Shown: one piece after another, positions 1,037-39,960 of the stretch
How positions within the stretch are numbered: position 1 is the first letter of the stretch
Layout: the number at the start of each line of letters is the position of its first letter
DNA from: Candidatus Eiseniibacteriota bacterium
GTDB taxonomy: Bacteria > Eisenbacteria > RBG-16-71-46 > CAVPCR01
Direction of reading: 5' to 3'
Assembly (NCBI GenBank): GCA_963823555.1
Contig: CAWGMA010000001.1
Location: 1,216,050-1,280,049 of the forward strand
Length of the DNA: 64,000 bases
Made by a program: the position numbers and the translations under genes
The notes under the pieces: model-generated
What the model was told of the DNA's origin: nothing
Databases searched by the model: none
The model's input: only the letters and a program-made list of their open reading frames with translations

Positions 1037-1093
1037 CCCGTACAGGCTCGCCCCTGGTCGCGGGCGATGCGGAGACGCGAAGCGGCGGATAAC

Positions 1094-1702
1094 ATGTTCG
1101 AGAACCTCGCGGGTGACCTGCGCGCCGCCCGCATCCACAATGCCAATTCACCGAGCTGGGTGGACCAGAACGTGACAATCTGGCTCCACTACGGCATGCA
1201 GGCCGTGGTGGTCTACCGGTTCGGTCGCTGGGTGCAGACCTTCCGTATCCCGGTCGTGAAGCAGGTCCTCAAGATCCTGCAAGTCGCGTGGCGAACCTGG
1301 TGCGAGATGGTCTACGGCATCAACGTGCCGGAGTCGACGGCGATCGGACCCGGGCTATGCATCCACACCTGGGCGGGAGTATTCCTCCCGCACAACACGA
1401 CGATCGGGCGCAACTTCACGGTCCAGCATGGAAACCTCATCGAGGACGGGGTCACGATCGGGGACGATGTCTATTGCGGGGTGGGGGCCAAGCTGATCGG
1501 GCGCATCCGGATCGGGAATCGGGTGCGGATCGGGGCCAACGCCGTCGTCATCACCGATGTGCCCGACGATTCGACGGCGGTCGGCATCCCGGCGCGGATC
1601 ATCCCTCATGCCCATGCCGAGAAGGACGCCGAACCGAGCTCTTCGCCTGCGAATCCGCTTCAGCCTGAGGGACCGCAGCAGGCGCTGTCGGCCGGCCGCT
1701 AG
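1094..1702 (+). CDS. cysE: serine O-acetyltransferase-like hexapeptide-repeat acetyltransferase
   Basis: N-terminal SAT helical region (MFENLAGDLRAARIHNAN...). C-terminal left-handed beta-helix hexapeptide repeats (IGDDVYCGVGAKLIGRIRIGNRVRIGANAVV). Start could be 1067 or 1094. Confidence 0.75.
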   Translation: MFENLAGDLRAARIHNANSPSWVDQNVTIWLHYGMQAVVVYRFGRWVQTFRIPVVKQVLKILQVAWRTWCEMVYGINVPESTAIGPGLCIHTWAGVFLPHNTTIGRNFTVQHGNLIEDGVTIGDDVYCGVGAKLIGRIRIGNRVRIGANAVVITDVPDDSTAVGIPARIIPHAHAEKDAEPSSSPANPLQPEGPQQALSAGR

Positions 1703-1768: not shown

Positions 1769-1797
1769 CTTCCGCTGCCGGCTGCCACCAGCTACAA
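1769..1797 (+). promoter_or_regulatory. putative sigma70-type promoter upstream of deacetylase-MTase-bshCBA operon (-10 TACAAT at 1792-1797, weak -35 TTCCGC)
   Basis: Only strong -10-like hexamer in the 137-bp gap between cysE-like and the HDAC-family gene. Weak -35. Confidence 0.25.
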
Positions 1798-1839
1798 TGC
1801 CCTGTTCCCCGGACCAGGTTGTGATCCCCAGGAGCTCCC

Positions 1840-2748
1840 ATGGCGAGTCTCGTCTTCTCGGACGGGTATTACGCGGACATCGGCGGCCACGTCTTTCCAA
1901 TGGAGAAGTTCGCGCTGATACGCCAGTTTCTGCTGGACACGGGCGCGGCTCGCGCGGAGGACTTCATCGCGCCGGAGCCCGCCTCCGATGAGGATGTGCT
2001 CCGGGTACACACGCCCGACTACGTGCGCAAGCTCAAGAGCGGGAGCCTGAGCGACGAGGAGATCCTCGCCCTCGAGCTTCCATTCTCCGCCGATCTCGCT
2101 CGCGCCTCCTGGCTGTGCGCCGGAGGGACGATCACCGCCTGCCGGCTCGCCGTGGAGCAAGGGTTCGCCGGGAATCTGGCCGGTGGATTCCACCATGCCT
2201 TTCCCGACCATGGCGAGGGCTTCTGCGTGCTGAACGACATCGCGATCGGGATCCGGGCCGTGCTCGCCGCGGGTCTGATCGAGCGGGCGGCGGTCATCGA
2301 TCTCGACGTGCACCAGGGGAACGGGACGGCCGCCATCTTCGCCGGCGAACCGCGCGTGTTCACGTGTTCCCTGCATCAGGAGCGGAACTACCCGCTCATC
2401 AAGCCTCCCAGCGATCTCGATTGCGGCCTGCGGGATGGCGCCACCGGGGCCGAGTATCTGGCCGTGCTGGAGCGGGCGCTGGGGGTCACGCTGGCCACCC
2501 GACCGGAGCTCCTGGTCTACGTGGCGGGGGCGGATCCCTACGCCGGGGACCAGCTTGGCGGTCTGGCGCTCTCGATCGACGATCTGGCAGCGCGCGACGA
2601 GGCGGTGTTCCAGGGTGCGGCCCTGAAGCGCGTGCCCGTCGTGGTGGTTCTGGCCGGCGGCTACGCCGCGGATGTGAGGGATACCGTGCGCATCCATGGC
2701 GCGACCATGCGTCGCGGACTCGCCTACCTCGAGGTGCTCAAGTCGTGA
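1840..2748 (+). CDS. histone deacetylase-family (AcuC/acetylpolyamine amidohydrolase-like) deacetylase
   Basis: HDAC fold motifs (GGFHHAFPDHGEGFCVLNDIAIG, VIDLDVHQGNGT). 4-bp GTGA overlap with downstream methyltransferase. Confidence 0.8.
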   Translation: MASLVFSDGYYADIGGHVFPMEKFALIRQFLLDTGAARAEDFIAPEPASDEDVLRVHTPDYVRKLKSGSLSDEEILALELPFSADLARASWLCAGGTITACRLAVEQGFAGNLAGGFHHAFPDHGEGFCVLNDIAIGIRAVLAAGLIERAAVIDLDVHQGNGTAAIFAGEPRVFTCSLHQERNYPLIKPPSDLDCGLRDGATGAEYLAVLERALGVTLATRPELLVYVAGADPYAGDQLGGLALSIDDLAARDEAVFQGAALKRVPVVVVLAGGYAADVRDTVRIHGATMRRGLAYLEVLKS

Positions 2749-3530
2749 GCGGAGAGTGGTTCGACATCGCCTTCGATGACCTGTATGCGGATCTCTACGC
2801 TCATCGCGACCGCGAGGAGGCGGAGCGGGCTGTGGGCTGGGTCGAGCGGGCGCTCGGGGCCAGAGGCCTTCCGGCGCTGGCGGGGTCTCGATGCGTGGAT
2901 CTGGCCTGCGGTGCCGGCCGGCATCTCCTGGCGCTTGCCGGTCGGGGAGCGCGCGCCGTGGGCGTCGATCGATCGCGAGCCCTCCTCTCGCGGGCCCATG
3001 CCGCCCGGGAAGGAGAGGGATCGGGGACGCAATACGAGCTCGTTGCCGGCGATCTCCGCCGCCTGCCCCTGGCCTCACGCAGCTTCGCGGTAGCCTTGAG
3101 CATGTTCACGAGCATCGGCTATTTCGCCCGTGACGAGGAGCACCGGGCCGCCCTGGTCGAAGTGGCCCGCATCCTTTACCCTGGAGGGGCGTTCGTGGTC
3201 GATTACATGAACGCGGAAGCGGTCGCGAGGACGCTCGTTCCGCGTTCCGAGCGGGAGGTCGGGGAGTACCTCGTCACCGAGGAGCGCCGCATCGACACCA
3301 CACAGCACCGCATCGCGAAGCAAGTGCGGGTGAGCCGGCGTGCGACCGGGGAGCTCGTGAAGCTCTACGCGGAATCCGTCGCCATGTGGTCGCGGGCCGA
3401 GCTGGAGGCCCGGATTCGGGCTTCTGGCTTTGCGGTGCGACTCGCCGCGGGAGACTACGATGGCGGGCCGTTCACGACGCACTCGCCGCGGCTCATCCTG
3501 ATCGCTGAGCTCGTGACAGCCGCAGCATGA
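2745..3530 (+). CDS. class I SAM-dependent methyltransferase (candidate N-methyl-bacillithiol synthase NmbA-like)
   Basis: GTG start at 2745 overlapping the HDAC stop. Methyltransf_11/25-like SAM motif VDLACGAGRHLLALAGRGARAVGVDRS. Immediately upstream of bshC. Confidence 0.7.
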   Translation: MSGEWFDIAFDDLYADLYAHRDREEAERAVGWVERALGARGLPALAGSRCVDLACGAGRHLLALAGRGARAVGVDRSRALLSRAHAAREGEGSGTQYELVAGDLRRLPLASRSFAVALSMFTSIGYFARDEEHRAALVEVARILYPGGAFVVDYMNAEAVARTLVPRSEREVGEYLVTEERRIDTTQHRIAKQVRVSRRATGELVKLYAESVAMWSRAELEARIRASGFAVRLAAGDYDGGPFTTHSPRLILIAELVTAAA

Positions 3531-3570
3531 AGCACGCCGCCATCACCATCGGCATCTTGACGGGGAACGA

Positions 3571-5244
3571 ATGAGCCAGGGAGCAGGCGGAACATCGACC
3601 AGGACGCGGCGCTCGCGCCCCGGCGCCGCTCTCATGCTCGGCGACATGGAGTATGGGCGCGCCTTCACGGGGCTCGCCACGGGCGATCCGACTCTCGATG
3701 GATTCCTGCCGCTGCTCCGCGATCTGCACCGGGGCGCGGCTCGCCGCCGGGAGGCCATGGTCGATCCGGGTCGCGGACCCCTCTGGGACGCGGTCGAGGC
3801 GCTCGCCGAACGCTGTCAGGCGCCCCCGGCGACCCGCCCTGCCCTGGCATCGCTCAGGGCTGGGGCTCCGGTCGTCTGCACCGGCCAGCAGCCCGGTCTC
3901 CTCGGCGGGCCCATCTTCATCCTGTACAAGGCGGCGACAGCCATTCACCTCGCCCGCGATCTCGAGCGCGCGCTGGGTGAGCCCGTGGTGCCCATCTTCT
4001 GGGTGGCCGCCGATGATTCCGATTTCAAGGAGGTCGCGCGAGCCACGCTGGCCACGGCCGACCTGAAGCTCGAAACGGTGGCCATCGACCCCGCACTCGA
4101 GGATCCCACGCGCATGGTGGGCGGCCTTGCGGTGACGGCGGGCCGGGATGCGGCGCGGAATGCGGCGCAAGCGACGTCCGGGCTTCCTTACGCTGCGCTC
4201 CTGTCCGAGCTGGCCGGAGCGACATGGGAACGGGGCCGGGACTGGGGCGAGGGATTCGCCGCCGTACTCTACGCTCTCCTTGGCGAGCATGGCCTGGTCG
4301 TGGTCGATGCCCGCGAGCCCGTGCTGCGCGATCTGGCTCGGCCTCTCCTCACGCGCTATCTCGATGATGTGGCTGGGTACGCGCAAGTGGTCGATCGTGC
4401 CGGCGAGGCGCTGGCGGCAGACGGGCTTGGCCGTCAGCTCGGGACCTTCGCCGCGCGCTTTCCGCTCTATGAGGAAGAGCCGCCGTATCGCCTCCGCCTG
4501 GCCGACCCCGGAGGCGGGGAGGAGCACTTGGCGAGCTTCGCGACGCGAGCCCGCGCGGTCATGTCTCGTGGCGGCGCACTGTGGACGGGCGTTGCGCTGC
4601 GCCCGCTCGTCGTGGACACGACCCTGCCGGTCGTGGCCCGCGTGCTCGGTCCGGCCGAGGTGGCGTACATGGCGCAGCTGTCCGGTGCCTACGCCCATCT
4701 GGATGTGGTGATGCCGCCGCTGGTGCCCCGCCTGACGGGAACGCTGGTCCCGGCTCGGTCCGCACGGGTGGCGGCCGCCACCGTGGGTGGGCTTCCGGCC
4801 CTGGTCCGCGACCCCGCGGCCACGCTTTCGGCCTACTACAAGCGTCAATTGCCGCTCCCGGCGCGGCGTGCGCTCGAGGAGCTCGAGGGCAGCCAGCGCG
4901 CCGGCTACGCTCGGGCGCGCGAGGCGCTCGCGGCTCTCGGCCGGGGGCTCGACCAGCTCGTCGACTCGGTCGCGACCAAGGCCGACTTCCAGCTCGCGCG
5001 ATTGTGGCAAGCCGCCATCAAGCGCGAGAGGAAGAAGCGCGAAGCGGATGAACCCTTCCTGCGCCACCTCGCCCCCTTCCTGCGTCCTGATCAGGGACTG
5101 CAAGAAAGGCGGCTGGCCACGCTCTCGGCGCTGGCTCTCGCCGGGCCGGGTCTGGTTTCGCGTGCGCTCGAGATGGCGGAGTCCGATCTCGCTCTGCTGC
5201 GCGCCGGGCGCGGTGAGCATCACCTCCTGGAATTTGACCCATGA
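3571..5244 (+). CDS. bshC: bacillithiol biosynthesis cysteine-adding enzyme BshC
   Basis: VVCTGQQPGLLGGPIFILYK...PVVPIFWVAADDSDFKEV matches the BshC signature (VVGGQQAGLLTGPLYTIHK...VIPIFWVAGEDHDLDEI). Alternative starts at 3634 or 3646. Confidence 0.8.
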   Translation: MSQGAGGTSTRTRRSRPGAALMLGDMEYGRAFTGLATGDPTLDGFLPLLRDLHRGAARRREAMVDPGRGPLWDAVEALAERCQAPPATRPALASLRAGAPVVCTGQQPGLLGGPIFILYKAATAIHLARDLERALGEPVVPIFWVAADDSDFKEVARATLATADLKLETVAIDPALEDPTRMVGGLAVTAGRDAARNAAQATSGLPYAALLSELAGATWERGRDWGEGFAAVLYALLGEHGLVVVDAREPVLRDLARPLLTRYLDDVAGYAQVVDRAGEALAADGLGRQLGTFAARFPLYEEEPPYRLRLADPGGGEEHLASFATRARAVMSRGGALWTGVALRPLVVDTTLPVVARVLGPAEVAYMAQLSGAYAHLDVVMPPLVPRLTGTLVPARSARVAAATVGGLPALVRDPAATLSAYYKRQLPLPARRALEELEGSQRAGYARAREALAALGRGLDQLVDSVATKADFQLARLWQAAIKRERKKREADEPFLRHLAPFLRPDQGLQERRLATLSALALAGPGLVSRALEMAESDLALLRAGRGEHHLLEFDP

Positions 5245-5978
5245 AATGCGTTGCCTTCGGTGCTCATCCCGATGATGTCGAGCTCGCGGCCGCTGGCACC
5301 CTGGCCCTGACCGTCCAGGCCGGGCATGACGTCCTGATCGCGGATCTGACCCAGGGGGAGCGAGCCACCGCCGGCAGCCCGGAGGAGCGAGCGGCGGAAG
5401 CCGCCGCTGCCGCTCGCGTGCTGGGAGTCCGGCGCTCGGGACTCGAGCTTCCCGACACCGCGCTCGACCGGGCGGACCAGAGTCAGCTCGAGCGCGTGGT
5501 CCAAGTCCTGCGACGCGAGCAGCCCGATCTCGTGCTCGCCCCGACCGGCCGCGACGCGCATCCCGATCATATCGAGGCTCATCACCTCGTCAGCCGGGCG
5601 GTCTTCCTCGCCGGGCTTGCCGGGTTCGCCCCGGAGGCCGGGGCGCCGCACCGGACTTCGCTCGTTCTCTTCTATCCATCATCGCGTGAGATGTTCGGCC
5701 GCCCGGACCTGATCGTCGACATCAGCGCGGTCATCGATCGCAAGATGGCCGTGCTCGCGTGCTACACGTCCCAGTTCATCCGCGTCCGGGGCGGGCTGGT
5801 GACCCCGCTCAACGCCCCAGGCTTCCTCGAGCGTGTCAAGGCGCGGGCGGCTGCTGTCGGTATCGATCGCGGCATCGAGCATGGAGAACCCTTCTTCCTG
5901 GACCGCCCACTGACCACGACGGATCCGCTGCGGCTCCTTGCGCTCACGGCGCCGGGTGGAGATGGAGGAACGTCATGA
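5241..5978 (+). CDS. bshB: N-acetyl-alpha-D-glucosaminyl L-malate deacetylase BshB (LmbE/PIG-L family)
   Basis: LmbE motif AHPDDVELAAAGTL...HPDHIEAH. ATGA overlap with the bshC stop. Confidence 0.8.
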   Translation: MKCVAFGAHPDDVELAAAGTLALTVQAGHDVLIADLTQGERATAGSPEERAAEAAAAARVLGVRRSGLELPDTALDRADQSQLERVVQVLRREQPDLVLAPTGRDAHPDHIEAHHLVSRAVFLAGLAGFAPEAGAPHRTSLVLFYPSSREMFGRPDLIVDISAVIDRKMAVLACYTSQFIRVRGGLVTPLNAPGFLERVKARAAAVGIDRGIEHGEPFFLDRPLTTTDPLRLLALTAPGGDGGTS

Positions 5979-7132
5979 CCCTGGGGCCGCTTGCGATCGG
6001 CATCACCTGCTACCCGACCACCGGTGGCTCGGGGATCGTGGCCACCGAGCTCGGGAAGCGTCTGGCCCGCCGCGGCCACAGCGTGCACTTCATCACCCAC
6101 GCGGTGCCGGTGCGGCTCCGCCAGTTCGAGGAGCGGATCTCCTTCCATCCCGTCGAGACCGAGAGCTATCCGCTGTTCAGTCACCAGCCCTACGCGCTCA
6201 ACCTGGCCGCCAAGATGAGCGAGGTCATCGAGCGCGAGCGCCTCGATATCCTGCATGTCCACTACGCGCTGCCGCATGCGGTGAGCGCCTACCTCGCCAA
6301 GCAGATCGTCCGACCTCGCGAAGTCAAGGTGATCACGACGCTCCATGGCACGGACATCACGCTGGTCGGCCTCCAGCCGTCGTTCTTCAGCGTCACCAAG
6401 TTCTCGATCGAGCAGTCCGACGCCGTGACCGCGGTCTCCGCCTGGCTCCGGGACCAGACAGTCCAGAGCTTCGGCGTCCGCACCCCGATCCATGTCATTC
6501 GCAACTTCGTCGACTCGGCCCGCTTCGCTCCCGGCCGCGACGAGCGGCGGCGCCTGGCGTTCGCGCGACCGGAGGAGGTGCTGCTGATGCACGCCTCCAA
6601 CTTCCGCCCGGTCAAGAACACGCCGCGCGTGATCGAGGTCTTCCATGCCGTGGCCGAGGCGGTACCGGCCCGGCTCCTGCTCGTGGGGGAGGGGCCCGAG
6701 CTTCCCGCCTGTCGCGACCTGGCCTCGGAGTTCGGTCTCGGCGATCGCATCACCTTCATGGGGGATCAGGAGTACATCGAGGCGCTGCTGCCGGTCGCGG
6801 ATATCTTCCTCCTGCCGTCCGATCACGAGAGCTTCGGGCTCGTCGCGCTGGAGGCGATGAGTTGTGGGGTCACGGTGGTGGCGACGCGAGTCGGCGGCAT
6901 GTCCGAGGTCATCACCGACGGCGAGACCGGCTTCCTGCTGGATCCCGGCGATGTGGCGGGGATGTCCGCGCTCACGATCGCGCTGGCGCGGGATCCGGAG
7001 CGCAGGGCCCGGGTGGCGGCGGCGGCCCGCAACGAGGCGGTGCAGCGCTTCGACATCGATGCCGCCGTCGATCACTACCTCGATCTCTATGCGGCGCTTC
7101 TCAGCGGGACGCTGCCGGGCGCCGGAGGATGA
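5975..7132 (+). CDS. bshA: N-acetyl-alpha-D-glucosaminyl L-malate synthase BshA (GT4 glycosyltransferase)
   Basis: GT4 fold with EGFGLVALEAMSCGVTVVATRVGG motif and BshA-like N-terminus (ITCYPTTGGSGIVATELGKRLARRGH). ATGA overlap with bshB. Confidence 0.85.
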   Translation: MTLGPLAIGITCYPTTGGSGIVATELGKRLARRGHSVHFITHAVPVRLRQFEERISFHPVETESYPLFSHQPYALNLAAKMSEVIERERLDILHVHYALPHAVSAYLAKQIVRPREVKVITTLHGTDITLVGLQPSFFSVTKFSIEQSDAVTAVSAWLRDQTVQSFGVRTPIHVIRNFVDSARFAPGRDERRRLAFARPEEVLLMHASNFRPVKNTPRVIEVFHAVAEAVPARLLLVGEGPELPACRDLASEFGLGDRITFMGDQEYIEALLPVADIFLLPSDHESFGLVALEAMSCGVTVVATRVGGMSEVITDGETGFLLDPGDVAGMSALTIALARDPERRARVAAAARNEAVQRFDIDAAVDHYLDLYAALLSGTLPGAGG

Positions 7133-7922
7133 ACCCCACCATGCGCCCGGTCGGCTCGCCCGAGCGCGCGGAGAAGTAGCGATCGCGCCGGCATAGCGTG
7201 CAGCTCTCGGGATCGGTGATGGCCGGGGGCGCGATGCCACCCGCTTCCAGCTTGAGCCGGGTCGCATGAACCAGGTCGAGATGCGGCCGCTCGCGCCGGC
7301 CTGGACGAAGCGTGCGCGGATCGAAGCGCGCGGCCACCTCGGGACCGACCTCGAAGCAACATGGGCCGATCCCCGGTCCGATGACGACCCGCATATGCTC
7401 GGGTCTTGCCCCCGCCCCGACCAGGGCGGCAAGACCGCCCTCGATGATCCCCGCGACCACACCACGCCAGCCCGCATGGAGGGCACCGATGACTCCCGCG
7501 GAGAGATCGGCGACGAAGATCGGCAGGCAATCCGCCACCGTCACCAGGAGCGCGAGGTCCGTCCTGGCGGTGACGAGCCCATCGGCCTCTCCGACCGGCC
7601 CGGGCTCGTCGACCGTGACCACCCGGGCGCCATGCACTTGAGCCATACGGGCACCGCGTCCGGGATGGATCCCGGCAGCCGCGTAGAAGCGGGCCCGGTT
7701 CTCGGTAACGGCCTTCGGGTCGTCGCCCGTGTTGCCGCCCAGATTGAGCGAGGCGTAGGGCGGAGCACTCACTCCACCATGGCGAAGGCTCATTCCGGCA
7801 AGGAGTTCCGGCGAGTTCCTGAAAAACCACTCGACACGAAGCCCTGCTTCGCGTGGCTTCTCAGGCTCTGGAGGCGGTGTCGCCCCCGGCCGGGGATGTG
7901 TTAGATACTCGCGATCATCCAT
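7101..7922 (-). CDS. pgeF: YfiH/PgeF family protein (DUF152; purine nucleoside phosphorylase / laccase-domain)
   Basis: LRHGGVSAPPYASLNLG...ADCLPIF...HAGWRG conserved His/Cys motifs. Start taken at MDDREY; the ORF extends to 8114. Convergent with bshA, overlapping about 30 bp. Confidence 0.75.
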   Translation of the reverse strand: MDDREYLTHPRPGATPPPEPEKPREAGLRVEWFFRNSPELLAGMSLRHGGVSAPPYASLNLGGNTGDDPKAVTENRARFYAAAGIHPGRGARMAQVHGARVVTVDEPGPVGEADGLVTARTDLALLVTVADCLPIFVADLSAGVIGALHAGWRGVVAGIIEGGLAALVGAGARPEHMRVVIGPGIGPCCFEVGPEVAARFDPRTLRPGRRERPHLDLVHATRLKLEAGGIAPPAITDPESCTLCRRDRYFSARSGEPTGRMVGFILRRPAASR

Positions 7923-8133
7923 GGGTGGTTCGCCGCCCCTCGTGGACTCGGCTCGCGGCCGGGTCGGAAACCGCCGACTATAGCTCCTATTTCCGGACCA
8001 GAGGGCTTTCAAGCTCGGGAGGCCTCGCATCACCGTCCTCCGCGCCCGACGATTCCTGATCCTGGCCGAAGGTGCCCTGGGCGCCTTCAGCGCGAAGACC
8101 GCCGTCGGTCTCATCCGCTATCGCGGTTCCGAG

Positions 8134-9129
8134 GTGGTCGGCGTCCTCGACTCGGCCGCTGCCGGCCGCACCCTCGGGGATGTTCTGGGCATCCCCCATC
8201 CGGCGCCGGTGGTCGCCACGCTCGAGGCCGGCCTCGACCTGCATCCGGATACGCTCCTGATCGGCATCGCCCCCCGCGGGGGAGGTCTCCCCGCGCCCTG
8301 GCGCGCGATTCTCATCGGTGCCATCTCGGCCGGACTCGATGTGATGAGCGGGCTCCATGTCTTCCTCGCCGATGATGCTGAGCTGGCTTCGCTCGCCGCG
8401 CGCCGCGGCGTCGAGCTCATCGACCTCCGGCGGCCGCCGGCGGAGATCAAGCTTCCGCGCGAGGCGCACGCCCCGCGGCCGCATGCGCGGCCGCTCGTCA
8501 TCCTGACCGTGGGCAGCGACTGCAACGTGGGCAAGATGACAGCTGCACTCGAGATCGTGAAGGCGGCACGCCAGGCCGGCATTGACGCGAGCTTCGGAGC
8601 CACCGGGCAGACGGGAATTCTCATCGCCGGCGGTGGCATCGCCGTCGATCGCGTGGTCGCCGATTTCATCGCCGGGGCGACGGAGGCCGTGATCGACGAC
8701 TTGGGCCCGGTCGAGTGGGTGGTGATCGAGGGTCAGGGATCGCTCCTCCACCCCGCCTATTCCGGCGTTACTCTCGGGCTTTTGCATGGGGCGCGCCCGG
8801 ATGCGATGATCCTGTGTCATCACGTCGGGCGGACGCGGATCGAGGGCTATGAGGTGTCCCTGCCGCCGCCGGCGGCGCTCGTGCGCCTCTACGAAGAGGC
8901 CGCGTCCTGGGTCGCTCCGGCCCCGGTCGTGGGCTTTGCCCTCAATGGGCGGGGCGCTCCCCCCGAAGTGCTCATCGAGTACGCCGCCCGCTGCCATCGC
9001 GAGACCGGGCTCGTGGCGGTGGATCCCTTGGTCGAGGCCCCGCGCCTCGTCACCGCGATCAGGGAGTCTATGAAGAGTCGGGGCGCAAGGCCCTCTCGCG
9101 CCGCCGCGCCGGCGAAGGAGCCAGGATGA
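8134..9129 (+). CDS. DUF1611 domain protein (conserved partner of dipeptide epimerases)
   Basis: ILTVGSDCNVGKMTAALEI P-loop-like region. Conserved N-terminus (FLILAEGALGAFSAKTAVGLIRYRGSEVVGVLD) lies in-frame upstream of the first canonical start (GTG 8134). No ATG/GTG/TTG back to the in-frame stop at 7981. Confidence 0.65.
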   Translation: MVGVLDSAAAGRTLGDVLGIPHPAPVVATLEAGLDLHPDTLLIGIAPRGGGLPAPWRAILIGAISAGLDVMSGLHVFLADDAELASLAARRGVELIDLRRPPAEIKLPREAHAPRPHARPLVILTVGSDCNVGKMTAALEIVKAARQAGIDASFGATGQTGILIAGGGIAVDRVVADFIAGATEAVIDDLGPVEWVVIEGQGSLLHPAYSGVTLGLLHGARPDAMILCHHVGRTRIEGYEVSLPPPAALVRLYEEAASWVAPAPVVGFALNGRGAPPEVLIEYAARCHRETGLVAVDPLVEAPRLVTAIRESMKSRGARPSRAAAPAKEPG

Positions 9130-10193
9130 GAATCCAGGTGGCCACGGTCGATCTGGAGACGCAGCTTCCCTTCATCACGGCCCATGGCGGTTCGCGCCAG
9201 CATCAGAACGTGCTCGTCCAGATCGAGCATGAAGGTCTGATCGGGCTCGGAGAAGCCGCACCCACTCCCTACCATGGCGAGACGGTGGCCAGCGTCAAGG
9301 CGGCGCTCTCGACCATGATCCCCGCCGTCGAGGCGGTCGGCAGCCCCGTCCAGCTCGAGGCGATCCATGGCGCCATGGATCGCGTGCTGGCGGGCAACCG
9401 CGCGGCCAAGGCGGCGATCGATATCGCCTGTCATGACTGGATGGGGAAGCGGGTCGGGATGCCGCTCTACGCTCTGTTCGGACTCGATCCCACCTCGGCT
9501 CCGCCGAGTTCTTACACGGTGCCCATCGTACCCCTCGAGCATCTGCGCCAGGCGATGGCTGCGGGCGAGGGCTTCGGCGCCTTCAAGGTCAAGATGGGTG
9601 ATCCCGGGGATGGCGAGCGCTTGAGCCAGGTACGCGCCGCCACGCAGAAGCCGATTCGCGTCGATGCCAATGCGGCCTGGAACGCAACCGAAGCGATCGG
9701 CCGGTTGCCAGAGCTCACGGCCGCCCACGTCGAGCTCCTGGAGCAGCCGGTCGCCGGGGACGACCTTCTCGGGCTGGCCCGCGTGCGCGACGCATCGCGC
9801 ATTCCGGTTCTCGCCGACGAGCCGGCCCTGACCGCGCTCGACGTGCCGCGCCTGGTGGGGATGGCTGACGGCGTCAACGTCAAGCTGGCGAAGGCGGGAG
9901 GAATCCGTCCCGCTCTCGCCATGATCCAGGTGGCGCGCTCCCTGGGGCTCCGGATCATGCTCGGGTGCATGATCGAGTCCTCGATCGGGATCGCTGCTGC
10001 CGCCCACCTCTCGCCGCTGGTGGACTGGGTGGATCTGGACGGCCACTTGCTCCTTGCCCGCGATCCTGCGCGCGGGCTGTCGCTTGTCGGGGGCCGCGTC
10101 GAACCGCGGGCGGCGCCGGGGCTCGGCGTGGAGCTCACCGCACCGGTGTTCGATCGCGGGGAAGGCTCGGACCGGGAGCGCCCCTCCTCATGA
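9126..10193 (+). CDS. dipeptide epimerase (L-Ala-D/L-Glu epimerase, enolase superfamily)
   Basis: Enolase-superfamily metal ligands (KVKMG..., IRVDANAAW, LLEQPV, ADE). ATGA overlap with DUF1611. Confidence 0.8.
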   Translation: MRIQVATVDLETQLPFITAHGGSRQHQNVLVQIEHEGLIGLGEAAPTPYHGETVASVKAALSTMIPAVEAVGSPVQLEAIHGAMDRVLAGNRAAKAAIDIACHDWMGKRVGMPLYALFGLDPTSAPPSSYTVPIVPLEHLRQAMAAGEGFGAFKVKMGDPGDGERLSQVRAATQKPIRVDANAAWNATEAIGRLPELTAAHVELLEQPVAGDDLLGLARVRDASRIPVLADEPALTALDVPRLVGMADGVNVKLAKAGGIRPALAMIQVARSLGLRIMLGCMIESSIGIAAAAHLSPLVDWVDLDGHLLLARDPARGLSLVGGRVEPRAAPGLGVELTAPVFDRGEGSDRERPSS

Positions 10194-15961: not shown

Positions 15962-16957
15962 ATGGAAGATGATCTGATGGTGGAGTTGGCCTTTCAGGTG
16001 CCCGTCGAGGCGGATCTCGCACGGGTGGACCGCCTGATCCAGGAGTTTTTCCATGCGAGCGCGAGCGGCCTGGCCCGCGATGTGGCGCGGCACGTGCTCG
16101 CAACCAATGGCAAGCGCGTGCGACCGACGTTGCTGCTCCTCGTGGCGCGGCGCCAGCGGGAGACGCCGGAGCGCGCGATCCTCTCCGGGGCGGCGGTCGA
16201 GCTCATTCACATGGCCACGCTCATCCATGATGATTCGATCGATCGCAGCATGCTGCGGCGTGGGCTGCCCACCATCAATTCGATGTATTCCGACCAGGTG
16301 TCGATCATCATGGGCGACTTCGTCTATTCGAAGGCGTTCGCCGTGATGGTGGAGCGCGGGCTCTACCGGGAGATGGGTATCCTCGCCGAGACGGCGCATG
16401 TCATGAGCCGCGGCGAGATGCGGCAGCTCGAGCGCAAGAACCGCTTGACCTCGACCGAGGCCGACTACCTGGAAGTGATCGACGAGAAGACGGCATCCCT
16501 GTTCCATGCCGCGTGCACGATCGGAGCCATCGCTCGCGGCAGTTCGGAAGAGGAAATCGCCGCCCTCGGTCGGTTCGGGATCGCCTACGGGCGCGCTTTC
16601 CAGATCACCGACGACCTCTTCGATTTCATCGGTGAGGAGGCCGTGATGGGGAAGGCTCGCGGTTCGGACCTGAAGAGCGGGCGGGTGACCTTGCCGGTCA
16701 TCGCCGCGCTCGCCAATGCCTCGCCGCGCGAGTGGAGCCGGATCGAGGAAGTGGTGTTGAGCGGGGGGCTCGCCAACGGGTTGTGGGACGAGGTGGTGTC
16801 GTTCATCGATCTCAAGGGTGGCGTGGACTACTGCTTCGAACGTGCCGCCCATCATGCCCGGGAGGCGCGGGCGATTCTCGAAGAAGTCGACCTCGACACC
16901 GACTCCCGCCAGGCGCTGGCGGCAGCGGTCGACCATGTCGTGCAGCGCCGGCGCTGA
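15962..16957 (+). CDS. ispB: polyprenyl diphosphate synthase (octaprenyl/heptaprenyl-type)
   Basis: FARM (LIHDDSIDRSMLRRG) and SARM (FQITDDLFDF) aspartate-rich motifs. Confidence 0.85.
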   Translation: MEDDLMVELAFQVPVEADLARVDRLIQEFFHASASGLARDVARHVLATNGKRVRPTLLLLVARRQRETPERAILSGAAVELIHMATLIHDDSIDRSMLRRGLPTINSMYSDQVSIIMGDFVYSKAFAVMVERGLYREMGILAETAHVMSRGEMRQLERKNRLTSTEADYLEVIDEKTASLFHAACTIGAIARGSSEEEIAALGRFGIAYGRAFQITDDLFDFIGEEAVMGKARGSDLKSGRVTLPVIAALANASPREWSRIEEVVLSGGLANGLWDEVVSFIDLKGGVDYCFERAAHHAREARAILEEVDLDTDSRQALAAAVDHVVQRRR

Positions 16958-22308: not shown

Positions 22309-22335
22309 ACAATAATTGTCAGTAACAACTATTGT
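22309..22335. promoter_or_regulatory. pair of AT-rich 11-bp palindromes ACAATAATTGT / ACAACTATTGT between convergent gene ends
   Basis: Perfect palindrome at 22309-22319 and a near-repeat at 22325-22335. Locally AT-rich in a high-GC genome. The second copy overlaps the stop of the STT3-like gene. Confidence 0.3.
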
Positions 22336-24176
22336 ACTTGGGGCGCCACCGCGTAGATGAGGTGGGGTCCGGCGCGGAAGCGTGGCGCGAAGGAGGCCAG
22401 GTCCTGCGGGTGTGCGATGAGCCGGACGTAGTTCGTGCGCGCGCCGCGGGCGGTCGGCTGCTGGCCGGTCCAGTAATCGGTGAAGCGGCGTCCGGCATAG
22501 GCGGCGTTGATGCCGCGCTTCTCCGCCGGCACCCACAGGTAGGTGGCGCGGTGCGCCCGGCAGAGGGCGAGCAGCGTGGCTTCATCCTCGGCATAGAGGG
22601 CGGTCGCGAAGTCCGCGATGCCGCGCCGCATCGCCGGGATCTCGAGCAGTCCATCCGTGACCGTGGGGATCCCGGAGACGAGCTGGATCGCGTAGCCATA
22701 GCCCCAGTCGCCGAGGACGATGTCGCCGGGACGAGCATGATCGCGGAGCCAGTGTAGGGCGGCATTCGTTTCCGGCGCGCGACGCGCAGGCAGGACCGCG
22801 ACCAGGCGGCGGGCGTCGTTCGCGGTCCACAGGAGCCCGCCCACGGCGATCGCGGTCGCGGCGAAGGCGGCGATCGGCCGGCGGTGGCGCCGGGGACCCT
22901 GCCCCTGCGCGCGCCAGGCGCCGGCGACGAGGAGGGCGGGATAGAGCGCAAGCAGGGGGCCGGCGAGCACCTTGTTGCGAGCGAAGAGCAGGGTGAGGAT
23001 GAAGAAGACCGCCGTCGCCGCCTGCCATAGCCGGAAGCCCGCACCCGTTCCGGAGTCCGCGATGAACGGCCTCCGCCGCGGCATGCGGCGTCCCAGGACA
23101 TACAACGAGAGCAAGGGGATGAGAGCCGAGAAGTAGTCGGCATCGACGAGATGCGCCGGTCTCGGCGAGTCCATCTCGGCATTGGTGGCGAGCAGCACCG
23201 CGCCGATGTCGTTCCCGCCGAAGCCCAGTTTCTGCGCGATCGCTCCGCCCACGCTGTCGTACGAGGACGGTGCGGCGGCAACGATGCTCGCCATGATGGC
23301 GAACGCCGCCAGGGCGATACGGAGCGCGAGGTGCCGTTGCTGGGGCCGTACCTCGGGGCCGAAGCGGGTGAACACGAGGGCGAGGACGATCGCGGAGAGG
23401 GCGAGGATCCCGGTACGACTCAGAGCGAACGGCTCGGCGCGGAGGTAGGGGACGAGAGGCGAGAGCGCCATCACCAGGATGAGGGATGGCAGGATCGCGA
23501 TCACATGCCGCCGCCGCAGGCGGTCGGCGGCGAGGAGGACGAGGAGCCCGATCGACTCGAGAGCGACCAGAATGAGGGGCACGCGCCAGGCGAGGACGGC
23601 GGTACCCAGACAGAGGGCGGCGGCTGCGCTCGCCATGTTGAGAGTGCGCGGTCTCGACGCGGAGAGGGCTGCGGCCAGAGCGGCGAGGTGCCCGGTCAGG
23701 AGGAGCGCGCCGAGCGCGTCGTAGCGCAGCCAGTGGCCCGCCGTGCGGTGGACGTGCGCGGGGCAGACGGCGGCGAAGGCCGCGGCGAGGAGCGCCGGTC
23801 CCCGGCCGAGACCGAGTGCGCGCGCGGCGATGTAGAGCGGCACCGCGATCATCGCCCCGCTGAGGGCGATGAAGAGAACCGCCGCCATATCGAGGTCCAG
23901 ATCGAGACCGAGCGTGCGAAGCGCGCGGTGCCAGAAGGCGACCGCCGGATAGAGCAGGGTCGGGAGGAACTCCGGAATCGGCTTCCCGTAGGGCGCCAGC
24001 CCGAGGGGATCCACGGCGGGAACCTGTCCGGTCGCTTCCACGGCGGCCGTCATGCGGATGTGGAAGGCAGGATCGAAGTCCCACTCGACGCCGCCGGCCT
24101 GGCGGACCGGCTCGAGGCGCAGGAGCGTGCCGCCAGCGACGATGGCGACGAGGCCGATGAGGGCCAGGGCCCGCAT
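22329..24176 (-). CDS. STT3/AglB/PglB-family oligosaccharyltransferase-like polytopic membrane protein with divergent WWDYG motif
   Basis: About 13 TM helices followed by a soluble C-terminal domain. EL1 motif WDFDPAFHIRM (cf. STT3 EFDPYFNYR). TIXE-like LLATNAEMD. GDWGYGYAIQLVSGIPTVTDG (cf. PglB [21 protein letters not shown]). Start taken at MRALALIG (24176); alternative M at 24188. The ORF extends to 24419 through a low-complexity basic region. Confidence 0.5.
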   Translation of the reverse strand: MRALALIGLVAIVAGGTLLRLEPVRQAGGVEWDFDPAFHIRMTAAVEATGQVPAVDPLGLAPYGKPIPEFLPTLLYPAVAFWHRALRTLGLDLDLDMAAVLFIALSGAMIAVPLYIAARALGLGRGPALLAAAFAAVCPAHVHRTAGHWLRYDALGALLLTGHLAALAAALSASRPRTLNMASAAAALCLGTAVLAWRVPLILVALESIGLLVLLAADRLRRRHVIAILPSLILVMALSPLVPYLRAEPFALSRTGILALSAIVLALVFTRFGPEVRPQQRHLALRIALAAFAIMASIVAAAPSSYDSVGGAIAQKLGFGGNDIGAVLLATNAEMDSPRPAHLVDADYFSALIPLLSLYVLGRRMPRRRPFIADSGTGAGFRLWQAATAVFFILTLLFARNKVLAGPLLALYPALLVAGAWRAQGQGPRRHRRPIAAFAATAIAVGGLLWTANDARRLVAVLPARRAPETNAALHWLRDHARPGDIVLGDWGYGYAIQLVSGIPTVTDGLLEIPAMRRGIADFATALYAEDEATLLALCRAHRATYLWVPAEKRGINAAYAGRRFTDYWTGQQPTARGARTNYVRLIAHPQDLASFAPRFRAGPHLIYAVAPQVQ

Positions 24177-24207
24177 GCCGCCGGGCATCGGGCGCGTCAG
24201 CGGCGGC

Positions 24208-24714
24208 TCACGGGCAGCCCTGCTGTCCCGTGGCTGCAGTGCGGAACGTGGTCTGCGCACTCGTCTCGAGTTCCCGGCCATCCTGGTTGCGGGCGATGAT
24301 GAAGTTGAAGGTGTAATTGGTCGAGGGGAGGAAGTCGAAGGGGAGTCCGAGCGTGCGCTCGGTGCCCGGGATCGGCTGACCGCTCGCGCTCGTCTCCGGG
24401 TTGGAGAGGAAGACCGCATTCACGTCGAGCGCCGCTCCTGGTTGCAGGGTGGCAAGGAAGTAGCGTGGGGCCTCGTCGTCGTATACCGCCGTGGTATCGA
24501 GCGGGCTGTTGAATGTGACATAGATCGTATCCCGGCAACTCGCGTTCTGACTTCCGGCCGTGGGCTCGACGAGCACGACGCGGAAACTCTCCGTGACGTT
24601 GGGACCGCCTCCCTCGTCGCAGCCCGGTGCGACCATGAGGACTGCGGCTGTTGCAGCCAGGATCGAGGCGATGATCATCCATCGCCGCTCAGAGAAGCGG
24701 GTATCTGCCTTCAT
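24208..24714 (-). CDS. small secreted protein (signal peptide, Cys right after the h-region), hypothetical
   Basis: MKADTRFSERRWMIIASILAATAAVLMVAPGCDEGGG signal. Mature part has three N-x-S/T sequons (NVT, NAS, NYT). Sits between pabC and the STT3-like gene on the same strand. Confidence 0.55.
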   Translation of the reverse strand: MKADTRFSERRWMIIASILAATAAVLMVAPGCDEGGGPNVTESFRVVLVEPTAGSQNASCRDTIYVTFNSPLDTTAVYDDEAPRYFLATLQPGAALDVNAVFLSNPETSASGQPIPGTERTLGLPFDFLPSTNYTFNFIIARNQDGRELETSAQTTFRTAATGQQGCP

Positions 24715-39955: not shown

Positions 39956-39960
39956 CCCGG

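What the first reader, a model, noticed from the sequence alone, without database searches (positions are those of the whole stretch)
1840..7132. Deacetylase + SAM-methyltransferase translationally coupled to bshC-bshB-bshA: candidate N-methyl-bacillithiol locus
Five genes on one strand are linked by 4-bp start/stop overlaps (GTGA at 2745, ATGA at 5241 and 5975) and a 40-bp gap before bshC, so they are very likely one transcript. bshA, bshB and bshC are the three known steps to bacillithiol. The two extra genes are an HDAC-family amidohydrolase and a class I SAM methyltransferase. N-methyl-bacillithiol is made by a SAM-dependent methyltransferase (NmbA) in Chlorobi and is predicted in other FCB-group bacteria. 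A methyltransferase placed directly 5' of bshC is a strong positional candidate for that step. The HDAC-family enzyme could be an alternative GlcNAc-Mal deacetylase or a thiol-conjugate amidase. A cysE-like serine acetyltransferase sits just upstream, matching cysteine supply for BshC.
Basis: partly seen in the sequence, partly recalled or inferred. Interest (0 to 1): 0.6.

Follow-up and report, generated by a model that had tools for sequence, protein, structure and literature searches.

The report
N-methyl-bacillithiol biosynthesis operon (nmbA-bshCBA)
This stretch carries all four genes needed to make the protective thiol N-methyl-bacillithiol, packed into one operon behind a housekeeping-type deacylase gene; it is a tidy new example of a pathway that is already known, not a new system.

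Summary
Five same-strand genes lie at 1840-7132. They are joined by GTGA at 2745 and by ATGA at 5241 and 5975, with a 40-bp gap before bshC. BshA and BshB1 pass NCBIfam's curated cut-offs. BshC passes Pfam's cut-off and falls just short of NCBIfam's.

The methyltransferase (2745-3530) is an orthologue of NmbA. Its best solved relative is C. tepidum NmbA (PDB 9RI2): E 6e-40, about 36% identity over the full length. The next-best hit is at 1e-15. Of 43 family-conserved positions, 39 are identical in CtNmbA. nmbA sits directly 5' of bshC in three different genomic settings.

The HDAC-family gene is a class IV (HDAC11-like) deacylase with the signature residues of peptide-active clade B. It lies next to bsh genes only in the window's own lineage, where the whole neighbourhood is syntenic. 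None of 80 other genomes carrying its orthologue has a BshC or BshB gene nearby. A related operon (L158) runs thioredoxin-nmbA-bshCBA with no HDAC. It is most likely a co-transcribed passenger.

The "cysE-like" gene fails the CysE and EpsC cut-offs and is missing from most related loci.

Verdict: a new member of a known kind, of low to moderate interest.

The parts
1067..1702 (+). Hexapeptide-repeat acyltransferase of the serine-acetyltransferase/EpsC/WcaB type. It is a variable upstream neighbour and not a confident CysE.
   Evidence: It matches PF00132. It scores 93.8 bits on EpsC (cut-off 150) and 73.1 bits on cysE TIGR01172 (cut-off 210.65). The best PDB hits are serine acetyltransferases at only 1e-13. 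It is present in L008 (82% identity) but absent from L001, L002, L003 and L009.
1840..2748 (+). Class IV (HDAC11-like) zinc-dependent deacylase, first gene of the co-directional run. It is probably a co-transcribed housekeeping lysine deacylase, not a BSH enzyme.
   Evidence: It matches PF00850 at 6e-57. The top PDB hits are 9gz5/9rjd at 1e-57, 9rje at 8e-57 and 9gkv at 1e-44. I assign 9gz5/9rjd to the L. interrogans clade B enzyme because the residue numbering matches, and 9gkv to VcHdaH from its citing paper; PMC13325672 describes the L. interrogans (B) and Chlamydomonas (A) structures and PMC11532494 the V. cholerae one. Residues I assign by homology as catalytic or zinc-binding are invariant in 14 orthologues: H118, H119, D156, H158, D232 and Y275. 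The clade B-type residues are HVFP in loop L1, E79, A89 and F117. An AGGAG motif lies 8 nt upstream of the ATG.
2745..3530 (+). nmbA orthologue: SAM-dependent bacillithiol N-methyltransferase, the last step of the pathway (BSH to N-Me-BSH).
   Evidence: Against 9RI2 (CtNmbA) it gives E 6e-40 and 140 bits, aligning residues 3-258 to 14-263. The next-best hit is at 1e-15. Identity is 36-37%. Of 43 family-conserved positions, 39 are shared with CtNmbA. The AF2 model has pLDDT 94, and Foldseek ties CypM and CtNmbA at the top. It is the only NmbA-like ORF in the window. Its GTG start overlaps the HDAC stop codon.
3571..5244 (+). bshC: the cysteine-adding enzyme (GlcN-Mal + Cys to BSH).
   Evidence: It matches PF10079 at 178.7 bits and PF24850 at 33.4 bits. 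It scores 254.6 on TIGR03998, slightly below the 265.8 cut-off. It is preceded by a 40-bp gap; in relatives it overlaps nmbA by 4 bp.
5241..5978 (+). bshB1: GlcNAc-Mal N-deacetylase (LmbE/PIG-L family).
   Evidence: It scores 225.1 bits on TIGR04001 (cut-off 182.5) and matches PF02585. An ATGA overlap joins it to bshC.
5975..7132 (+). bshA: N-acetyl-alpha-D-glucosaminyl L-malate synthase (GT4 family).
   Evidence: It scores 503.8 bits on TIGR03999 (cut-off 273.7). An ATGA overlap joins it to bshB, with GGAGGA 6 nt upstream. Homologues are annotated as BshA.
7101..8114 (-). pgeF/yfiH-family gene, convergent with bshA and overlapping its 3' end. It marks the downstream boundary of the operon and is a conserved neighbour.
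   Evidence: It scores 152.8 on TIGR00726 (cut-off 141) and matches PF02578. It holds the same position in L001, L002, L008, L009 and L158.

Best explanation
The locus encodes the complete four-step pathway to N-methyl-bacillithiol, arranged as one co-directional and probably co-transcribed unit.

1. BshA (5975-7132) joins UDP-GlcNAc and L-malate to give GlcNAc-Mal.
2. BshB1 (5241-5978) removes the acetyl group.
3. BshC (3571-5244) adds cysteine to give bacillithiol.
4. The product of 2745-3530, an orthologue of NmbA, transfers a methyl group from SAM to the cysteine amine to give N-Me-BSH.

The enzyme identities are shown by sequence. The chemistry is inferred from the characterised B. subtilis and C. 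tepidum enzymes. Co-transcription is inferred from the overlapping stops and starts.

The conserved module is nmbA-bshC-bshB-bshA, closed by a convergent pgeF. The class IV HDAC-like gene at 1840-2748 is translationally coupled to nmbA only in this lineage. It is most likely a general short-chain lysine deacylase that shares the transcript, not a pathway enzyme. The SAT-like acyltransferase further upstream is a recent, lineage-restricted insertion.
For: NmbA orthology:
- PDB 9RI2 is the top hit at 6e-40 over the full length. The second hit is at 1e-15.
- 9RI2 is CtNmbA/CT1040, which has been shown to methylate BSH.
- Identity is 36-37% with more than 95% coverage. This meets the criteria of Hiras 2018 (at least 30% identity, E no worse than 1e-20) and Hammerstad 2025 (at least 25% identity, over 80% coverage, E no worse than 1e-20).
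- Motif I (D-x-ACGAGRH) and the GYF motif (Y134/F135 of CtNmbA) are conserved.
- 39 of 43 family-conserved positions are shared with CtNmbA. These include N-terminal and cap positions outside the SAM-binding site.

Linkage to bshC, in three settings:
- HDAC-nmbA-bshCBA in L001, L002, L003 (contig ends within bshC), L008 and L009.
- Thioredoxin-nmbA-bshCBA in L158.
- rlmH or AMMECR1-nmbA-bshC-murJ in the Gemmatimonadales-type loci L004-L007 and L159.

Bsh enzymes: BshA and BshB1 pass the NCBIfam equivalog cut-offs, and BshC passes Pfam's.

HDAC as a passenger:
- 80 GTDB loci carry orthologues at 47-60% identity. None has BshC or BshB within 10 kb, and their neighbours vary.
- The L158 operon lacks the gene.
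- In a 60%-identical relative, the flanking genes are a polyprenyl synthase and a creatininase-family gene.
- It has clade B signature residues. PMC13325672 associates these with peptide-lysine deacylation, and reports a short-chain preference for basal bacterial members.
Against: - No thiol chemistry or enzyme assay exists for this uncultured organism.
- The fold search cannot separate NmbA from CypM (1.7e-22 against 3.8e-22). Specificity therefore rests on sequence and gene context.
- BshC is 11 bits below the NCBIfam cut-off.
- The 4-bp HDAC/nmbA overlap is conserved in every member of the lineage examined. That would also be expected if the HDAC had a real role.
- Co-transcription was not shown. 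The promoter and terminator scans were uninformative.
Confidence: 0.82

Rival explanations
1. The class IV HDAC-like enzyme is a true component of (N-Me-)BSH metabolism in this lineage. It could be a second GlcNAc-Mal deacetylase, a thiol-conjugate amidase, or a deacylase that regulates the Bsh enzymes.
For: - Its stop codon overlaps the nmbA start by 4 bp in the window and in L001, L002, L008 and L009.
- One unrelated contig, L088, also places an NmbA-family MTase directly 5' of a class IV HDAC.
- B. subtilis has redundant deacetylases and amidases (BshB1/BshB2), cited in PMC12719100 ref. 25.
Against: - None of 80 other genomes with the orthologue has BshC or BshB nearby.
- The L158 operon and the Gemmatimonadales nmbA-bshC pairs lack it.
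- None of 67 metagenomic relatives of the L088 MTase repeats that adjacency.
- Within the window's lineage the whole region is syntenic (dcd, band-7, nfeD, asd ... pgeF, DUF1611, MR_MLE). Adjacency there carries little extra weight.
- In some relatives asd is coupled to the HDAC gene in the same way.
- The signature residues (L2 Glu, Phe gatekeeper, no Arg in L1 or the foot pocket) point to peptide substrates.
- A full BshB1 is already present.
- The searched literature contains no link between HDACs and BSH.
Confidence: 0.1
2. The methyltransferase belongs to the NmbA family but acts on a different amine, so the locus makes only unmethylated bacillithiol.
For: - The Pfam and NCBIfam hits are generic. 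The best named NCBIfam hit is the daptide N-methyltransferase, at 78 bits against a cut-off of 175.
- By fold, CypM is as close as NmbA.
- Hammerstad et al. note that some outlying homologues may methylate other acceptors.
- The window protein's closest relatives in L001, L002 and L009 are only 28-30% identical to CtNmbA.
Against: - There is an 80-bit gap between CtNmbA and every other solved MTase.
- 39 of 43 conserved positions are shared with CtNmbA.
- Placement immediately 5' of bshC recurs in three different contexts.
- The window holds no other candidate.
Confidence: 0.08
3. The upstream hexapeptide acyltransferase is a CysE. It was recruited to feed cysteine to BshC, making this a six-gene thiol module.
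For: - Its best relatives are serine O-acetyltransferases.
- It is on the same strand.
- It is retained in L008 at 82% identity.
Against: - It scores well under the CysE and EpsC cut-offs: 73 against 211, and 94 against 150.
- The PDB match covers only the C-terminal two thirds of SAT structures, at 1e-13.
- It is absent from L001, L002, L003, L009 and L158.
- It is separated from the HDAC gene by 137 bp that are poorly conserved and show no significant secondary structure.
Confidence: 0.15

Closest known systems
NmbA (CT1040, UniProt Q8KDK7, PDB 9RI2) of Chlorobaculum tepidum; also PpNmbA of Paenibacillus polymyxa
   Same: - It is a class I SAM-dependent methyltransferase of about 260 residues.
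- The alignment is full-length at 36-37% identity.
- It has the same Motif I (D-x-ACGAGRH), the GYF adenine-stacking pair, the N-terminal W/F/Y/Y/HRD block, and the cap and C-terminal residues R181, K192, E210, GDY-G and R249.
- It occurs in a genome that also has bshA, bshB and bshC.
   Different: - In C. tepidum the four genes are dispersed: CT0548, CT1419, CT1558 and CT1040. Here they form one operon, with nmbA directly 5' of bshC.
- The host is an uncultured high-GC lineage. Its nearest named relatives are Gemmatimonadales (NmbA, 44%) and Krumholzibacteriia/Eisenbacteria (BshA, 54-58%).
- Activity has not been tested.
Bacillus subtilis bacillithiol pathway (BshA, BshB1/BshB2, BshC)
   Same: The three enzyme families match, and the same three reactions are inferred. 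BshA and BshB1 pass the equivalog models built on these enzymes.
   Different: - From my own knowledge, B. subtilis splits the genes between two operons and has no nmbA.
- The window's BshC is divergent: 254.6 bits against a cut-off of 265.8.
Class IV HDACs: L. interrogans liHDAC11/B (9GZ5/9RJD as I assign it), V. cholerae VcHdaH (9GKV as I assign it), human HDAC11
   Same: - The arginase-deacetylase fold is the same, at about 300 residues.
- The residues I assign as catalytic and zinc-binding are intact.
- It has the clade B pattern: Phe gatekeeper in GGFHH, Glu in loop L2, and no Arg in L1 or the foot pocket.
   Different: - It is encoded immediately 5' of nmbA-bshCBA. This arrangement is not described for any class IV HDAC in the papers read.
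- Its substrate is unknown.
CypM (7WZG), a peptide N-terminal N-methyltransferase, and the CcbJ/TylM1/DesVI N-methyltransferases
   Same: They share the predicted fold with a four-stranded beta cap. Foldseek gives E 1.7e-22 with TM 0.74-0.81. All of them methylate amines.
   Different: The sequence relationship is far weaker: 55.6 bits against 140.6 for NmbA. None of them is linked to bsh genes.

Membership tests
NmbA (bacillithiol N-methyltransferase) | Full-length similarity to CT1040 at the published orthologue thresholds. Hiras 2018 requires at least 30% identity, E no worse than 1e-20 and similar length. Hammerstad 2025 requires at least 25% identity, over 80% coverage and E no worse than 1e-20. 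| tested here: met
   The match is 36-37% identity over 247-258 aligned residues of 261, at E 6e-40 (phmmer) and 9e-39 (tblastn).
NmbA (bacillithiol N-methyltransferase) | CtNmbA is a closer relative than any other characterised methyltransferase. | tested here: met
   9RI2 scores 140.6 bits. The next entries are 9sot at 61.1 bits and CypM at 55.6 bits.
NmbA (bacillithiol N-methyltransferase) | SAM-binding Motif I (VLDIAxGxG) and the aromatic pair Y134/F135. | tested here: met
   The window has CVDLACGAGRH and SIGYF aligned to CtNmbA's VLDIACGAGRH and SFGYF.
NmbA (bacillithiol N-methyltransferase) | Family-conserved residues outside the SAM site, in the cap and substrate cleft. | tested here: met
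   Of 43 positions at least 85% conserved among 41 homologues, 39 are identical in CtNmbA. These include W5, F10, Y14, Y18, H20, R21, R181, K192, E210, G236, Y238 and R249. The paper names no individual substrate-binding residues that could be checked.
NmbA (bacillithiol N-methyltransferase) | Co-occurrence with bshA, bshB and bshC. | tested here: met
   All three lie immediately downstream on the same strand.
NmbA (bacillithiol N-methyltransferase) | The narrow 'molecular basket' cap architecture seen in the crystal structure. | tested here: inconclusive
   The AF2 model (pLDDT 94) has a four-strand cap, but Foldseek ranks CypM and 9RI2 equally. The authors report that AlphaFold models differ from the crystal structure in the cap.
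NmbA (bacillithiol N-methyltransferase) | SAM-dependent N-methylation of the BSH cysteine amine. | not testable with these tools
   This needs an enzyme assay or thiol profiling.
BshA (TIGR03999) | Score above the equivalog cut-off. | tested here: met
   It scores 503.8 bits against 273.7, covering residues 7-376 of 385.
BshB1 (TIGR04001) | Score above the equivalog cut-off. | tested here: met
   It scores 225.1 bits against 182.5. BshB2 scores only 42 bits.
BshC (TIGR03998 / PF10079) | Score above the curated cut-off. | tested here: inconclusive
   On NCBIfam it scores 254.6 bits against 265.8, just under the cut-off. On Pfam, PF10079 scores 178.7 against 27 and PF24850 scores 33.4 against 27, both passing. 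No other family matched.
Class IV HDAC (HDAC11-like), clade B | Best similarity to class IV structures, with intact catalytic His-His, Asp/His/Asp zinc ligands and the GGY tyrosine (residue roles assigned by homology). | tested here: met
   The top PDB hits are 9gz5/9rjd, 9rje and 9gkv. H118, H119, D156, H158, D232 and Y275 are invariant in 14 orthologues.
Class IV HDAC (HDAC11-like), clade B | The clade B signatures given in PMC13325672: no Arg at L1 position 2, Glu in L2, a Phe/Tyr gatekeeper, and no Arg closing the foot pocket. | tested here: met
   By alignment to liHDAC11/B, with a chain offset of +3: HVFP; E79 aligns with E84; F117 aligns with F122; A89 aligns with S94. No phylogenetic tree was built.
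CysE serine O-acetyltransferase (TIGR01172) | Score above the equivalog cut-off. | tested here: not met
   It scores 73.1 bits against 210.65. EpsC scores 93.8 against 150. SAT structures match only at 1e-13.

The most novel reading that the evidence does not exclude
In this uncultured lineage a class IV (HDAC11-like) deacylase has been recruited into N-methyl-bacillithiol metabolism. It might hydrolyse an amide of GlcNAc-Mal or of a thiol conjugate, or it might deacylate and so regulate the Bsh or NmbA enzymes. Either role would give the first physiological small-molecule or pathway context for a bacterial class IV HDAC.
Probability: 0.1. Interest if true: 0.55.

Novelty: new member of a known kind. 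Interest (0 to 1): 0.25.

Why it matters
- **Distribution.** The locus extends the predicted range of N-methyl-bacillithiol to a poorly sampled, uncultured high-GC lineage.
- **Annotation.** It shows that nmbA can be physically fused into the bsh operon. In C. tepidum the four genes are scattered. Adjacency of nmbA and bshC is a cheap extra criterion for telling true NmbA orthologues from the many generic class I methyltransferases. Current Pfam and NCBIfam models do not name this protein.
- **The HDAC gene.** Its coupling to nmbA is a small open question. Natural substrates of bacterial class IV HDACs are largely unknown. The evidence here favours coincidence.

Tried and rejected
1. **HDAC-bsh linkage elsewhere.** I scanned GTDB genomes with an HDAC alignment and ran tblastn for BshA, BshB, BshC and NmbA on 80 loci. 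There were no BshC or BshB hits, only weak generic GT4 hits. Clustering the HDAC neighbours gave unrelated housekeeping genes such as ffh, a MerR regulator and a PP-loop ATPase; these labels are my reading of the sequences.
2. **The L088 exception.** An NmbA-like MTase sits directly 5' of an HDAC in L088. I followed it up with a metagenome scan. None of 67 related loci has an HDAC or Bsh gene in its flanks, so I rejected it as coincidence.
3. **Fold search with the AF2 model.** It cannot discriminate NmbA from CypM.
4. **RNA and signal scans.** Rfam and tRNA scans of the window found nothing. The promoter and terminator scan was at background level.
5. **The 137-bp gap before the HDAC gene.** It is poorly conserved against L008 and has no significant fold (z -0.56).
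6. **Naming the organism.** Cluster look-ups returned no names. Only approximate placement was possible, from named homologues.
7. **Other BSH-related genes in the window.** I looked for genes such as Bdr/YpdA and bacilliredoxins among 20 further ORFs and found none. The window was not annotated exhaustively.
8. **Literature search** for a link between bacillithiol and histone deacetylases found nothing relevant.

Full report
**Observation.** Reading the junctions directly confirms GTGA at 2745-2748. It confirms ATGA at 5241-5244 and at 5975-5978. It also confirms a 40-bp gap at 3531-3570. Upstream lie asd, whose 5' end is cut by the window edge, and a hexapeptide acyltransferase at 1067-1702. 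Downstream, a convergent pgeF/yfiH-family gene (7101-8114, minus strand) overlaps the end of bshA. Four-base overlaps are frequent in this genome; at least four more occur elsewhere in the window. The overlaps therefore indicate co-transcription but are not remarkable in themselves.

**The Bsh enzymes.**
- BshA scores 503.8 bits on TIGR03999 (cut-off 273.7).
- BshB1 scores 225.1 bits on TIGR04001 (cut-off 182.5).
- BshC scores 254.6 bits on TIGR03998, 11 bits under the cut-off. It clearly passes Pfam PF10079 (178.7 bits) and PF24850, and it matches nothing else.

The identification of bshC, bshB and bshA stands.

**The methyltransferase.** Pfam and NCBIfam return only generic class I methyltransferase families. 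The best named NCBIfam model is the daptide N-methyltransferase, far below its cut-off.

Against all PDB sequences the top hit is 9ri2_A. The match is E 6e-40 and 140.6 bits, aligning residues 3-258 to 14-263. The next hit scores 61 bits. The Redox Biology paper PMC12719100 identifies 9RI2 as the crystal structure of C. tepidum NmbA (CT1040, Q8KDK7). That paper shows biochemically that CtNmbA and PpNmbA methylate BSH. Hiras et al. showed genetically that CT1040 is required for N-Me-BSH.

Further points on the orthology:
- Identity is 36-37% over about 250 residues. This satisfies both published orthologue criteria.
- Motif I and the Y134/F135 pair are conserved.
- Among 43 positions at least 85% conserved across 41 homologues of the window protein, 39 are identical in CtNmbA. 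Several lie outside the SAM site, including the N-terminal W/F/Y/Y/HR block, R181, K192, E210, GDY-G and R249.
- CtNmbA finds no other ORF in the window.
- An AlphaFold2 model is confident (pLDDT 94.3) and has the four-stranded cap. Foldseek ranks CypM (1.7e-22) and CtNmbA (3.8e-22) together, so fold alone does not settle specificity. The authors themselves note that AF models deviate from the crystal structure in the cap.

**Gene context of nmbA.** The window's exact protein sits on a 2.3-Mb contig. Three arrangements were found.
- *Window-type.* Relatives with 54-62% NmbA identity (L001, L002, L008, L009) have the order asd-(hexapeptide)-HDAC-nmbA-bshC-bshB-bshA. In L003 the same order is seen until the contig ends within bshC. 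It is followed by a convergent pgeF, then DUF1611 and MR_MLE genes. Most junctions carry 4-bp overlaps.
- *L158.* A more distant relative (46% identity) has thioredoxin-nmbA-bshC-bshB-bshA-pgeF(-) with no HDAC.
- *Gemmatimonadales-type.* In loci L004-L007 and L159 (41-47% identity), nmbA directly precedes bshC. The pair is flanked by rlmH or AMMECR1 on one side and murJ on the other, and bshB and bshA lie elsewhere.

So nmbA is immediately 5' of bshC in three different surroundings. This is strong contextual support for a BSH-related role. The adjacency is not universal. Sixty-seven metagenomic loci of another NmbA-family branch show no bsh neighbours, and in C. tepidum the genes are dispersed.

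**The HDAC-family gene.** Its closest solved relatives are class IV enzymes: 9gz5/9rjd (1e-57), 9rje (8e-57) and 9gkv (1e-44). PMC13325672 solved one clade B structure (L. interrogans) and one clade A structure (C. reinhardtii), and cites 9RJD and 9RJE. PMC11532494 describes V. cholerae VcHdaH and cites 9GKV. I assign 9gz5/9rjd to L. interrogans because its residue numbering matches the paper's after a 3-residue chain offset.

The residues I assign by homology as catalytic histidines, zinc ligands and the GGY tyrosine are invariant in 14 orthologues. Mapping the window protein onto liHDAC11/B gives these signature residues:
- HVFP in loop L1, with no arginine
- E79, equivalent to E84
- A89, equivalent to S94, and not arginine
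- F117, equivalent to gatekeeper F122

These are the clade B signatures. According to PMC13325672, clade B enzymes deacylate lysine peptides, and basal bacterial members prefer acetyl to octanoyl groups. That paper ties the L2 glutamate to peptide-backbone binding.

The protein is highly conserved and widespread. There are about 8,000 hits below 1e-20, many at 55-60% identity in Acidobacteriota.

Tests of a link to BSH:
- In 80 GTDB genomes carrying an orthologue (47-60% identity), no BshC or BshB gene lies within 10 kb. These genomes are Acidobacteriota, Gemmatimonadota, Eisenbacteria and others. The neighbours are heterogeneous.
- A 60%-identical relative sits between a polyprenyl synthase and a creatininase-family gene.
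- The single exception is L088, where an NmbA-like MTase lies 5' of the HDAC beside nrfAH. None of 67 relatives of that MTase reproduces this.
- Inside the window's lineage the entire 15-kb neighbourhood is syntenic, and asd is coupled to the HDAC gene in the same way in L002 and L009.

I therefore read the HDAC gene as a co-transcribed housekeeping deacylase, with about 10% probability of a real role in thiol metabolism.

**The "cysE-like" gene.** It belongs to the serine-acetyltransferase/EpsC/WcaB branch of hexapeptide transferases. It fails both relevant cut-offs: EpsC at 93.8 against 150, and CysE at 73.1 against 210.65. It matches SAT structures only at 1e-13. It is present in the window and L008 only. 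Its link to cysteine supply is weak.

**Taxon.** No source names the organism. The nearest named homologues are Gemmatimonadales for NmbA (44%), and Candidatus Krumholzibacteriia and Eisenbacteria for BshA (54-58%). Identity drops sharply outside a small set of unnamed metagenomic contigs. The host is therefore an uncultured, poorly sampled lineage. From my own knowledge of where these named phyla are usually placed, it is probably in or near the FCB superphylum. Hammerstad et al. already list Gemmatimonadota among the phyla that frequently encode NmbA. Neither NmbA paper discusses operon structure.

**Verdict.** The locus is a compact nmbA-bshCBA operon for N-methyl-bacillithiol. It is a new member of a known pathway in a new lineage. 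The arrangement is useful for annotation, and the HDAC coupling remains a minor unresolved point.

Noticed in passing
L158:3217-7646 (JGI Ga0074470_11231744): A related operon runs thioredoxin-nmbA-bshC-bshB-bshA, with overlaps of 4, 8 and 4 bp and a convergent pgeF. It has no HDAC gene. A redox protein occupies the position that the HDAC holds in the window.
   Followed up: partly
L004-L007 and L159 (Gemmatimonadales-type contigs): The order (lpx genes)-rlmH or AMMECR1-nmbA-bshC-small ORF (91-95 aa, no Pfam hit)-murJ is conserved (L006 lacks the small ORF; L159 ends just after it). bshB and bshA are not adjacent. The small ORF after bshC is uncharacterised.
   Followed up: no
L088:9235-10933 (CAYGWX010000066.1): An NmbA-family methyltransferase (34% identity to CtNmbA) lies directly 5' of a class IV HDAC, downstream of nrfA-nrfH and an enoyl-CoA hydratase. 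None of 67 metagenomic relatives of the MTase repeats the pairing.
   Followed up: yes
window 7101-8114 (-): The pgeF/yfiH-family ORF overlaps the 3' end of bshA by 32 bp. As listed it is 337 aa, against 255-293 aa in relatives, and the domain starts at residue 110. The real start is probably internal.
   Followed up: no
window 8134-10193 (+): A DUF1611 gene (DgcN-like, 247 bits against a cut-off of 480) and an MR_MLE gene (DgcA-like, 210 bits against 400) are joined by a 4-bp overlap. The pair is syntenic with the bsh operon in L001, L008 and L009, and at least partly in L002, whose contig ends just after DUF1611. It may be a diverged N-acetyl-D-amino-acid system.
   Followed up: no
window 3493-5223 (-), 1792-3078 (-), 5762-7486 (-): Very long antisense ORFs (428-576 aa) lie opposite the bsh genes. 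They are the usual artefact of about 70% G+C and have no family support.
   Followed up: partly
window 22329-24419 (-), 27355-29826 (+), 39946-42930 (+): These are an STT3-like oligosaccharyltransferase homologue (weak, 36 bits), a ComEC-type competence protein, and a 994-aa M6 (immune inhibitor A-like) peptidase with a FlgD-Ig domain. An M6 peptidase also lies near the bsh operon in L158.
   Followed up: no
L010:7158-9838: A 60%-identical orthologue of the HDAC gene lies between a polyprenyl synthase and a creatininase-family gene, and overlaps the latter by 4 bp. The window has its own polyprenyl synthase at 15962-16957, about 13 kb from the HDAC gene.
   Followed up: no
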